A stretch of DNA of 4,471 nt from a virus (IMGVR_UViG_2703718812_000015); one strand, 5' to 3'; positions 1-550 are shown, counted from the stretch's first letter. The notes: generated by a model from the letters alone, not told the origin. Numbers and translations are program-made.

Positions 1-550
1 GTCTCCAGGATTCCCGGGGCGGTTCAGCCTCTAAAATTACGGGGCGATTTTCCGGCAACGGACCATCCCCTTCACATAACCCGGCAGTTTCTTTCATTTC
101 ATCTGCTGCAAGCACCTCATTTTTTGTTGGGGTGCTTTTTTTCAATTCAGTAACACAGCACTCCAGTTTTTCAATACGTGATTCAACATCATCTTTTTCT
201 GACCGCAGTGTTGACGGCGGCATCTTCAGAGAACAAGTAATTCTTCCCGGTAGCTTTCCTTTGTAGGTTATCAACACATCCTGCGCCTCTAAAATTACGG
301 GGCGATTTTCCGGCAACGGACCATCCCCTTCACATAACCCGGCAGCAACATCCATGAAAAACTGCTTCGCCTGCTTTTTCGCCTCAGCTTCGTAAAACTC
401 CAGCGTGGCACCTTCAGTACGGTCAAGACTAATCGCCACATCTGGCAACAACAGTGACGGATACCCACCAATTTCCAGTGCCACAGTAACAGTAATCTTA
501 TCCGGGTAATTATTTATCCCTTTAACAACCAGTTCGTATTTTTTCTTCAT
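1..550 (-). CDS. Hypothetical phage protein, 3'-partial (C-terminus lies beyond the window start); occupies the slot immediately downstream of the holin
   Basis: ATG at 550-548 (minus) with a GGGGAGAG Shine-Dalgarno 7 nt upstream, starting 4 nt after the holin stop. My hand translation stays open for 183 codons to the window edge (MKKKYELVVKGINNYPDKITVTVALEIGGYPSLLLPDV...). Absent from the supplied ORF track because it runs off the edge. No lysozyme or SAR-endolysin features recognised. The position matches the small ORF found between holin and endolysin in some lambdoid prophages (ydfR-like slot), but family membership is unconfirmed. Confidence 0.6.
   Translation of the reverse strand, partial: MKKKYELVVKGINNYPDKITVTVALEIGGYPSLLLPDVAISLDRTEGATLEFYEAEAKKQAKQFFMDVAAGLCEGDGPLPENRPVILEAQDVLITYKGKLPGRITCSLKMPPSTLRSEKDDVESRIEKLECCVTELKKSTPTKNEVLAADEMKETAGLCEGDGPLPENRPVILEAEPPRESWR
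27..87. repeat. 61-bp exact direct repeat, copy A (partner at 285-345), inside the post-holin ORF
   Basis: gcctctaaaattacggggcgattttccggcaacggaccatccccttcacataacccggcag is identical at 27-87 and 285-345, with flanking bases differing on both sides. Offset 258 bp = 86 codons, so both copies encode the same 20-aa peptide AGLCEGDGPLPENRPVILEA in frame. Confidence 0.95.
285..345. repeat. 61-bp exact direct repeat, copy B (partner at 27-87)
   Basis: See copy A; identity verified base by base. Confidence 0.95.

What the first reader, a model, noticed from the sequence alone, without database searches (positions are those of the whole stretch)
1..550. Exact 61-bp in-frame direct repeats inside the unknown ORF that follows the holin
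Directly observed: 27-87 and 285-345 are 100 percent identical over 61 bp while the flanks are unrelated, so this is not a simple tandem duplication. The copies are 258 bp apart (exactly 86 codons) and both encode AGLCEGDGPLPENRPVILEA. Inference: homologous recombination or replication slippage between the copies would delete 86 codons in frame, giving an on/off or long/short switch of this protein. Alternatively the ORF was built by module shuffling or recent gene conversion. Perfect nucleotide identity within a coding region is unexpected for an old internal duplication.
Basis: seen in the sequence. Interest (0 to 1): 0.6.

Follow-up and report, generated by a model that had tools for sequence, protein, structure and literature searches.

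The report
IS629 scar in a prophage gene
The exact 61-bp repeat is real, but it is a leftover of a recent IS629-associated rearrangement in the ydfR gene of a broken E. coli O103:H2 prophage, not a built-in protein length switch, so it is an ordinary sign of genome decay.

Summary
Positions 27-87 and 285-345 are identical over 61 nt, 258 nt apart, in frame on the minus strand. The interpretation misses the key fact: window 1-26 is the terminal inverted repeat of IS629, so the distal copy (A) lies directly against an insertion sequence.

The ORF is ydfR (DUF1327), next to a P21-type holin, in a prophage remnant at ydfJ. That remnant has lost its endolysin, Rz and all structural genes. The ORF ends 21 nt inside IS629. 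RefSeq annotates two ydfR pseudogene fragments here.

The two-copy form occurs in only 8 of 5,426 complete E. coli genomes, all O103:H2 clade C1 or O45:H2 relatives, and always with IS629 attached. Sister clades have one copy at 99.9-100% identity. 115 of 120 homologue representatives carry one motif.

The predicted 258-bp deletion product was not found, and neither was any intermediate.

Junction 26|27 is a precise IS end. Junction 87|88 is an illegitimate join with 2-nt (AG) microhomology.

My favoured route is a 258-bp tandem duplication later truncated by IS629. The main rival is a one-step IS629/IEE strand-switch event. Interest is low.

The parts
1..26 (-). Outermost 26 nt of the left inverted repeat (IRL) of IS629. 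Its reverse complement is TGAACCGCCCCGGGAATCCTGGAGAC. The window starts inside the IS.
   Evidence: In E. coli O103:H2 12009 the window continues leftward into a 1310-bp element (L001 4717-6026). That element carries an IS3-family orfAB transposase with a programmed frameshift. It is 99.6% identical over its full length to an element annotated as IS629 in phage JLK-2012.
27..87 (-). Copy A: a displaced 61-nt fragment of ydfR (gene nt 206-266), lying between the IS629 end and the 87|88 junction.
   Evidence: It is an exact copy of 285-345. RefSeq annotates window 23-97 as a 'YdfR family protein, missing N- and C-terminus' pseudogene. It is present only in the 8-genome lineage. It is 59 nt long in O45:H2 strains.
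86..88 (.). Illegitimate junction 87|88, joining ydfR nt 206 to nt 463, with 2-nt AG microhomology.
   Evidence: Single-copy relatives read ...AATAG|TTTCTTTC and copy B reads ...GGCAG|CAACATCC. The window reads ...GGCAG|TTTCTTTC.
88..284 (-). Native ydfR sequence of the long form (aa 89-154, a low-confidence segment followed by a predicted helical linker). It is contiguous with copy B in all relatives.
   Evidence: It is 100% identical to single-copy O103:H2 strains. It aligns to the 296-333-aa long YdfR forms. The helix prediction has only moderate confidence.
285..345 (-). Copy B: the native position of the motif AGLCEGDGPLPENRPVILEA (aa 69-88) in ydfR.
   Evidence: It is contiguous with both flanks in more than 500 genomes. 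It lies inside the DUF1327 match.
1..550 (-). The ydfR-derived ORF. It starts at the ATG at 550 and its DUF1327 domain covers aa 1-100. The full ORF is 190 aa and ends 21 nt beyond the window, inside IS629.
   Evidence: See (the last identifies it as BAI30500.1).
555..770 (-). Class II (phage P21 S-type) holin, immediately upstream of ydfR.
   Evidence: Pfam PF04971, E = 3.6e-33; RefSeq annotation.

Best explanation
The repeat is a by-product of IS629-driven decay of a lambdoid prophage remnant at ydfJ in the E. coli O103:H2 clade C1 / O45:H2 lineage. It is not a functional device.

Shown:
- Copy B is the native motif of ydfR.
- Copy A is a 61-nt piece of the same gene allele, relocated 258 nt downstream.
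- On one side, copy A is bounded by a nucleotide-precise IS629 left end (26|27), the kind of joint a transposase makes.
- On the other side, it is bounded by an illegitimate join with 2-nt AG microhomology (87|88).
- Everything that normally follows ydfR (endolysin, Rz, packaging, head and tail genes) has been deleted up to an espV fragment on the other side of the IS.
- The ORF simply reads through copy A into the IS and stops.

Inferred, favoured route (about 0.45):
1. A microhomology-mediated tandem duplication of window 88-345 (258 bp, ydfR nt 206-463).
2. An IS629 end landed between 284 and 285 of the distal unit.
3. IS629-IS629 recombination, or an IS-adjacent deletion, removed the rest of that unit and the late genes. 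This left only its last 61 nt.

Being in frame (258 = 86 x 3) is then a 1-in-3 coincidence. The 61-nt repeats could still recombine and delete 258 bp. That would only change the tail of an already truncated protein in a dead lysis cassette.
For: IS identity and position:
- Window 1-26 is the IS629 IRL. The IS is 1310 bp (L001 4717-6026) and 99.6% identical to an annotated IS629.
- This IS copy has no 3-bp target duplication (left CCT, right GCC), so its flanks are recombinant. Other IS629 copies near ydfR have clean duplications: CAG in L004 and CCT in L005.

Prophage decay:
- In 12009 the order is ydfJ', dinI-like, nleG7 (frameshifted), hyp, tnp', espV', IS629, copy A, ydfR', holin.
- The sister strain FWSEC0007 keeps lysozyme, Rz, perC and terminase between ydfR and its IS629 copies.

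Lineage restriction:
- The 345|88 junction is in 8 of 5,426 complete genomes, always with the IS.
- The espV'|IRR junction is in the same 8 genomes.
- Single-copy clade C3/C4 strains are 99.97% identical over 3.7 kb.

Local origin of copy A:
- Both copies carry the rare PENRP allele (2 of 98).

No natural double motif:
- 115 of 120 homologue representatives have one motif.
- The long (296-333 aa) and short (114 aa) forms aligned have one.

Plausibility of the tandem-duplication step:
- Another lineage has a perfect 279-bp in-frame tandem duplication inside ydfR. It is bounded by 9-nt microhomology and seen in two assemblies.

IS629 activity at this spot:
- At least 35 genomes have IS629 within about 1 kb of ydfR, at several positions.
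- Further IS-truncated ydfR ORFs exist (P0125, P0134).
- In O45:H2 the IS next to copy A is a hybrid. Nt 1-775 match the 12009 IS and nt 776-1310 match another IS629 variant. The joint is 2 nt further in, and this is seen in two assemblies.
- That pattern fits a second IS629 insertion 2 nt away (target CTC) followed by IS-IS recombination.

Literature:
- IS629 is amplified in these STEC serotypes.
- SpLE1-like elements carrying iee occur in O103:H2.
- IEE-dependent events give deletions of IS-flanking DNA from a few nt to more than 40 kb (PMC9397093; PMC9943667).
Against: No intermediate was found. The predicted 262-aa full tandem-duplication ORF is absent from about 15 billion proteins. No IS-free two-copy genome exists among the complete genomes. 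The order of events is therefore inferred, not shown.

A 258-bp tandem duplication is unstable. It would have to persist until the IS arrived, which favours a single complex event.

The N-terminal 112 aa nearly match complete 114-aa short YdfR proteins. The protein could therefore still be active, and 'pseudogene' is only an annotation call. The function of YdfR is unknown: no paper was found and there are no PDB relatives. A role for the altered tail cannot be strictly excluded.
Confidence: 0.8

Rival explanations
1. One-step IS629/IEE event. The cleaved 3'-OH of the IS629 left end was transferred 'sloppily' into ydfR at 284|285. After 61 nt, the strand switched back to position 88 at the AG microhomology. 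Synthesis there was primed or extended by the PrimPol-like IEE or a host polymerase. One event would thus delete the DNA between the IS and position 87 and leave a 61-nt templated filler.
For: The 26|27 joint is exact to the IS terminal CA, and the other joint has 2-nt microhomology. Published models invoke sloppy strand transfer for IS629 flanking deletions, and strand switching at 2-4-nt microhomologies for loss of ISApl1 copies from Tn6330. IEE performs microhomology-mediated end joining in vitro. iee elements occur in O103:H2. FWSEC0007 has an IS629 in the same orientation 2.8 kb downstream of ydfR, a possible starting state. No tandem-duplication intermediate was found.
Against: I found no report of a 61-nt templated filler at an IS629 joint in the papers read. 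I could not draw a simple strand path that yields exactly IS|285-345|88... There is no microhomology at 26|27. The presence of iee in these 8 genomes was not tested here. The IS in 12009 is only 97.6% identical to the FWSEC0007 copy.
Confidence: 0.25
2. Flank-carrying (one-ended) transposition. An IS629 first sat at 284|285 of a ydfR copy. It then transposed using its right end and a surrogate end 61 nt outside its left end (...GGCA-3'). This carried the 61 nt to a new site at 86|87 of the same or another prophage.
For: The carried segment would end in CA, the dinucleotide at IS3-family ends. The 3' part of ydfR is a recurrent IS629 target. Surrogate-end use by IS911 is established knowledge from memory and was not checked here.
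Against: The true IRL is intact, so there is no reason to bypass it. The putative surrogate end matches the inverted repeats at only 9 of 26 and 5 of 26 positions. The 61-mer has no significant inverted-repeat similarity (p = 0.19 against shuffles). No donor configuration (an IS directly beside a single contiguous copy) exists in 5,426 complete genomes or in the protein collection.
Confidence: 0.08
3. One reading: the two in-frame copies form a recombination- or slippage-driven switch that toggles a long and a short form (or on and off states) of a functional phage protein.
For: 61 nt of perfect identity is enough for RecA-dependent recombination or for slippage (established knowledge). The resulting deletion would be in frame.
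Against: The ORF is already fused to and terminated within IS629, in a prophage lacking an endolysin. There is no copy-number variation among 7 O103-type genomes from humans and cattle. No deletion product was found in any data set. Homologues have one motif.
Confidence: 0.03
4. Assembly artefact: the second copy was created by a mis-join at a repeat.
For: The window starts inside a multicopy IS, and draft contigs often break here (partial YdfR proteins at contig ends).
Against: The structure is identical in 7 independently assembled complete genomes, including strain 12009. A variant appears in two O45:H2 assemblies.
Confidence: 0.01

Closest known systems
IS629 (IS3 family) insertion and flanking-deletion polymorphisms in EHEC prophages, including IEE-promoted deletions of IS-flanking DNA
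   Same: There is a 1310-bp IS629 with an exact terminal joint. Adjacent prophage genes are lost, the IS flanks are recombinant (no target duplication), and the pattern is lineage-specific in an iee-carrying serotype.
   Different: A 61-nt copy of nearby sequence sits between the IS end and the deletion joint. Ordinary IS-adjacent deletions join the IS end directly to the distal flank.
Microhomology-mediated tandem duplication inside a gene (for example the 279-bp in-frame duplication in ydfR of assemblies GCA_005381005.1 and GCA_005381265.1)
   Same: The repeats are direct, with a head-to-tail joint at a short microhomology (AG here, AATAATTAC there). Both are in frame, in the same gene, and the copies are perfectly identical.
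   Different: Here only the last 61 of the 258 nt of the distal unit remain. The rest is replaced by IS629, so the tandem state is inferred rather than seen.
Templated (filler) insertions at microhomology-mediated end-joining junctions (Pol theta-type in eukaryotes; IEE PrimPol MMEJ in vitro)
   Same: A short stretch copied from a template a few hundred nt away sits in direct orientation at a deletion joint, with 2-nt microhomology at one side.
   Different: One side is a transposase-type exact IS end with no microhomology. No such product has been reported for IEE in the papers read. This is a resemblance only.
Repeat-mediated contingency or phase-variation loci
   Same: They have in-frame direct repeats whose recombination would change protein length.
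   Different: There is no copy-number variation among relatives, the gene is already disrupted, and the repeat is unique to one clone. For contrast, the 36-bp repeat in the esterase gene of the same window does vary (1 or 2 copies).

Membership tests
YdfR / DUF1327 phage protein family | A match to Pfam PF07041 above the gathering score | tested here: met
   154.3 bits against a cut-off of 25, covering aa 1-100. PHROG families 406, 2091 and 1085 also match relatives.
YdfR / DUF1327 phage protein family | Position in the lambdoid lysis cassette, between the class II holin and the endolysin | tested here: met
   The holin lies 4 nt upstream. The endolysin follows in relatives (L002, L005). Here it has been deleted.
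YdfR / DUF1327 phage protein family | An intact C-terminus of one of the natural length classes (114, 183, 211, 296-333 aa) | tested here: not met
   The ORF leaves the family alignment after ...ADEMKET and ends in IS629 sequence. RefSeq annotates it as a pseudogene.
IS629 (IS3 family) | A length of about 1.3 kb with orfA/orfB and a programmed -1 frameshift | tested here: met
   The element is 1310 bp. The annotated transposase is joined by a programmed frameshift and has an AL1L pseudoknot. It is 99.6% identical to an annotated IS629.
IS629 (IS3 family) | Terminal inverted repeats of the form 5'-TG...CA-3' | tested here: met
   Both ends read TGAACCGCCCCGG....
IS629 (IS3 family) | A 3-bp target-site duplication flanking a simple insertion | tested here: not met
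   The left flank ends in CCT and the right flank starts with GCC. This copy is therefore not a simple insertion, and its flanks were brought together by later recombination or deletion. The L004 and L005 copies do have 3-bp duplications.
Repeat-mediated switch (contingency locus) | Repeat copy number or deletion state varies among close relatives or within populations | tested here: not met
   7 genomes are identical. No deletion product was found in 5,426 complete genomes, a metagenome scan, or exact protein look-ups. Within-culture variation is not testable with these tools.
Repeat-mediated switch (contingency locus) | At least one state encodes an intact functional product | tested here: not met
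   Both the present state and the predicted deletion state end in IS629-derived residues.
Tandem duplication | Two complete head-to-tail units | tested here: inconclusive
   The head-to-tail joint 345|88 is present, but only 61 of the 258 nt of the distal unit remain. The full intermediate was not found.
IEE-mediated IS-flanking deletion | iee present in the genome and the deletion dependent on it | not tested
   The literature places iee in O103:H2. I did not verify it in these 8 genomes, and dependence needs an experiment.

The most novel reading that the evidence does not exclude
The 61-nt copy could be a templated filler laid down in a single IS629 transposase / IEE (PrimPol-type) strand-transfer and microhomology strand-switch event. 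If so, it would be a natural genomic footprint of a bacterial templated-insertion end-joining pathway so far characterised mainly in vitro.
Probability: 0.2. Interest if true: 0.45.

Novelty: new member of a known kind. Interest (0 to 1): 0.15.

Why it matters
It matters little for phage or host biology. The gene is a truncated accessory gene of unknown function in a defective prophage.

It has three modest uses:
- It is a clean clonal marker for O103:H2 clade C1 and its O45:H2 relatives. The junctions are IS629|GCCTCT (or IS629|CTCT in O45:H2) and GGCAG|TTTCTTTC.
- It is a caution that 'in-frame exact repeats in an ORF' next to a contig end can be IS artefacts of genome decay.
- It is a candidate natural example for groups studying IS629/IEE junction chemistry, if the one-step origin were shown.

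Tried and rejected
1. Donor or deletion-product search. A chimeric query (IS629 end + copy B + contiguous ydfR) found no single-piece match in 5,426 complete genomes. Exact look-ups of the 104-aa and 101-aa predicted products, with three IS-tail variants, were negative. An exact scan of metagenome contigs for the IS|copy joint gave 0 hits.

2. Tandem-duplication intermediate. The predicted 262-aa ORF is absent.

3. Surrogate IS end or inverted-repeat mimicry in the 61-mer. The local alignment score is not above shuffles (p = 0.19), and end-anchored identity is 9 of 26 and 5 of 26. A partial match, CGGGGCGATT against CGGGGCGGTT, was judged to be chance.

4. Conserved second motif in homologues. 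None was found, except in singleton tandem duplications.

5. Function of YdfR. The only Pfam match is DUF1327. All matching PHROG families are of unknown function. The PDB profile search gave only chance-level hits. The AlphaFold model of a 305-aa long form is poor (mean pLDDT 45.5). Only a small N-terminal beta-sheet plus helix (aa 1-72) is confident, and the motif lies in a low-confidence segment. I therefore ran no fold search. No literature was found on ydfR with holin, and there is one incidental mention of DUF1327.

6. The Kusumoto 2011 IEE paper is not in the held library. Its findings are cited only through.

7. Rfam and promoter/terminator scans showed nothing relevant within 1-550, apart from a terminator-like hairpin on the plus strand.

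Full report
**Observation**

The window carries two exact 61-nt copies, at 27-87 and 285-345, spaced 258 nt apart. On the minus strand an ORF starts at the ATG at 550 and runs off the left end of the window. Both copies are in its frame and encode AGLCEGDGPLPENRPVILEA, at aa 69-88 and 155-174. The sequence around the copies is unrelated. In 200 Markov simulations of the window, the longest exact repeat averaged 11.6 nt and never exceeded 15.

**What the ORF is**

The ORF is not anonymous. Its first 100 residues match Pfam DUF1327 (YdfR) at E = 1e-45. It sits 4 nt downstream of a phage P21-type class II holin (555-770, minus strand). Further upstream are DUF826, DUF1378 and a NanS-p-like SASA esterase. 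That is the late region of a lambdoid prophage.

YdfR proteins come in several natural length classes that share the N-terminal module:
- 114 aa, followed directly by the endolysin gene in the example examined (L005);
- 176-211 aa;
- 296-333 aa, with a helical linker and variable C-terminal domains.

Window 88-284 is genuine long-form ydfR coding sequence.

**What lies at the left edge**

The window matches seven complete genomes at 100% over positions 1-800. These include E. coli O103:H2 strain 12009, and four of them match at 100% over the whole window.

In 12009 the window continues leftward into a 1310-bp element whose terminal 26 nt are window 1-26. The element has an orfAB transposase with a programmed frameshift. 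It is 99.6% identical, end to end, to an element annotated as IS629.

Copy A therefore lies directly against the IS629 left end. The residues after it (EPPRESWRLNSLRKR, then stop) are translated inverted repeat. The ORF is 190 aa and was deposited as ECO103_1688. RefSeq now annotates window 215-550 as ydfR 'missing C-terminus' and 23-97 as a ydfR internal fragment.

Left of the IS come an espV fragment, a transposase fragment, a hypothetical gene, a frameshifted nleG7, a dinI-like gene and the split ydfJ. The endolysin, Rz, terminase and all structural genes are gone. The IS has no target-site duplication (CCT against GCC). Other IS629 copies near ydfR in other lineages do have them (CAG, CCT). 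The flanks of this IS were therefore brought together secondarily.

**Distribution**

- The 345|88 joint exists in 8 of 5,426 complete genomes: 12009, SJ7, 99E2750, 2011C-4251, 2000-3039, UTAK-2, UTAK-4 and the O45:H2 strain FWSEC0003. IS629 is attached in every case.
- The opposite IS joint (espV'|IRR) is confined to the same eight genomes.
- Strain 12009 represents clade C1 of O103:H2. Strains of clades C3 and C4 (PV16-126, FWSEC0007, CEC12044) carry the same prophage region at 99.9-100% identity with a single copy. Their homology to the window stops exactly at position 86/87.
- In those strains the ORF is 176 aa (...ADEMKETILELAARLNCASLLKEHFQQP) and is followed by the lysozyme and Rz genes. 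That form occurs on 555 contigs in the protein collection, against 8 for the two-copy form.
- Among 120 cluster representatives of homologues, 115 have one motif. The only two with two motifs are singleton tandem duplications.
- Both copies here carry the rare Asn allele (PENRP, 2 of 98 representatives with a readable motif). Copy A is therefore a local copy of copy B.

**Junction anatomy**

- Joint 26|27 is exact to the terminal CA of the IS and shows no microhomology. This is the signature of transposase chemistry.
- At joint 87|88, single-copy strains read AATAG|TTTCTTTC and copy B reads GGCAG|CAACATCC. The window reads GGCAG|TTTCTTTC. This is an illegitimate join with AG microhomology.

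**Origin**

The simplest series of standard events has three steps:
1. A 258-bp tandem duplication of window 88-345.
2. An IS629 end arrives at 284|285 of the distal unit.
3. The remainder is lost through IS-IS recombination or an IS-adjacent deletion.

Support is indirect:
- A perfect 279-bp in-frame tandem duplication bounded by 9-nt microhomology exists inside ydfR in two other assemblies.
- The 3' part of ydfR is a recurrent IS629 target.
- The same joint was remodelled again in O45:H2. There the IS is a hybrid of two IS629 variants and copy A starts 2 nt later, in two independent assemblies. That is what a second insertion 2 nt away followed by IS-IS recombination would give.

I did not find the full-duplication intermediate.

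The main rival is a single IS629/IEE event, with sloppy strand transfer followed by a strand switch at microhomology. Its elements are proposed in the literature for IS629 flanking deletions and for loss of ISApl1 copies from Tn6330. IEE is a PrimPol-like enzyme with end-joining activity, and iee-bearing elements occur in O103:H2. No such filler is reported in the papers I read, and I could not trace a simple strand path that produces this structure.

Flank-carrying transposition is less likely. The true inverted repeat is intact, the 61-mer offers no inverted-repeat-like end, and no donor configuration exists.

**The switch hypothesis**

Recombination between 61-nt repeats is mechanistically possible. 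However:
- Both the present and the predicted post-deletion ORFs end in IS-derived residues.
- The lysis cassette has no endolysin.
- The seven O103-type genomes, from humans and cattle, are unchanged.
- The deletion product is absent from complete genomes, from a metagenome scan and from about 15 billion proteins.

One caveat remains. The first 112 residues nearly match complete 114-aa YdfR proteins, so the N-terminal module might still function. YdfR function is unknown, and the structure model was too poor to help.

**Verdict**

This is a real, recent, lineage-specific repeat that marks an IS629-associated rearrangement in a decaying prophage. It is an ordinary kind of event with an unusual small detail (a 61-nt copy at the IS joint). 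Interest is low, and the only mildly novel reading is the one-step templated-filler origin.

Noticed in passing
window 3228-3299 (minus-strand gene 1483-3456): A 36-bp in-frame tandem repeat (12 aa, DVTTPVVVPGTG) in the NanS-p-like SASA esterase is polymorphic between very close relatives. There are 2 copies in the window and in O45:H2 FWSEC0003. There is 1 copy in 12009, FWSEC0007 and PV16-126 (657 aa against 645 aa). Unlike the 61-bp repeat, this one does vary in copy number.
   Followed up: partly
L007 (CP031916, O45:H2 FWSEC0003) 4717-6030; also protein KDV51215.1 of O45:H2 2010C-4211: The IS629 next to copy A is a hybrid. Nt 1-775 are identical to the 12009 IS and nt 776-1310 are identical to another IS629 variant. 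The IS|flank joint is 2 nt further in (IS|CTCTAAAA), giving a 59-nt copy A and a 174-aa ORF. This fits a second IS629 insertion beside the resident end followed by IS-IS recombination.
   Followed up: partly
L008/L009 3037-3593 (assemblies GCA_005381005.1 and GCA_005381265.1); proteins P0001, P0002, P0004, P0051: Independent internal duplications occur in short-form ydfR in other strains. One is a perfect 279-bp in-frame tandem duplication bounded by the 9-nt repeat AATAATTAC. The others are a 55-aa duplication, a complex one and an out-of-frame one, all singletons in draft assemblies. It was not resolved whether ydfR is unusually duplication-prone or whether some of these are assembly artefacts.
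   Followed up: partly
YdfR family (P0007, P0012, P0026, P0091, P0017, P0045): YdfR is modular. A conserved N-terminal module of about 112 aa is fused to nothing (114 aa), to a helical linker (176-211 aa), or to a linker plus one of at least two unrelated C-terminal domains (296-333 aa). PHROGs splits these into families 406, 2091, 1085 and 2735. All are of unknown function, despite the conserved position between holin and endolysin.
   Followed up: partly
window 3597-3763, minus strand: Rfam match to the sRNA STnc100 (101.6 bits, gathering score 47). It lies upstream of the esterase gene, in the position between the Q antiterminator and the late genes.
   Followed up: no
window 110-137, plus strand: A terminator-like hairpin (10-bp stem followed by a T-run) lies antisense to ydfR. 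In single-copy relatives, a plus-strand hypothetical ORF (WP_024246813.1) ends with its TAG exactly at window position 87, just upstream of this hairpin. It is unclear which strand is really coding in that stretch.
   Followed up: no
window about 3898-4260, minus strand: A TerB-family gene with an internal stop (RefSeq pseudogene) and a small DUF3927 gene (3800-3937) sit between the Q antiterminator region and the esterase. This is further evidence that the prophage is decaying. There is no stx at the position where Stx phages carry it.
   Followed up: no
L006 (CP031908, FWSEC0007) 3820-9900: In the single-copy sister strain, the same prophage holds three IS629 copies, one nested inside another, and an inverted terminase segment between them. 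The region downstream of ydfR is a local hot spot of IS629 insertion and IS-mediated inversion or deletion. Proteins P0125, P0127, P0133 and P0134 show further truncations of this ydfR allele in other strains. P0125 and P0134 end in translated IS629 inverted-repeat sequence. The tails of P0127 and P0133 were not identified.
   Followed up: partly
window ends (1 and 4471): The window begins 26 nt inside IS629. Many draft assemblies have 4.1-5.4-kb contigs that end in partial YdfR proteins. The window may likewise be a short-read contig bounded by repeats.
   Followed up: no
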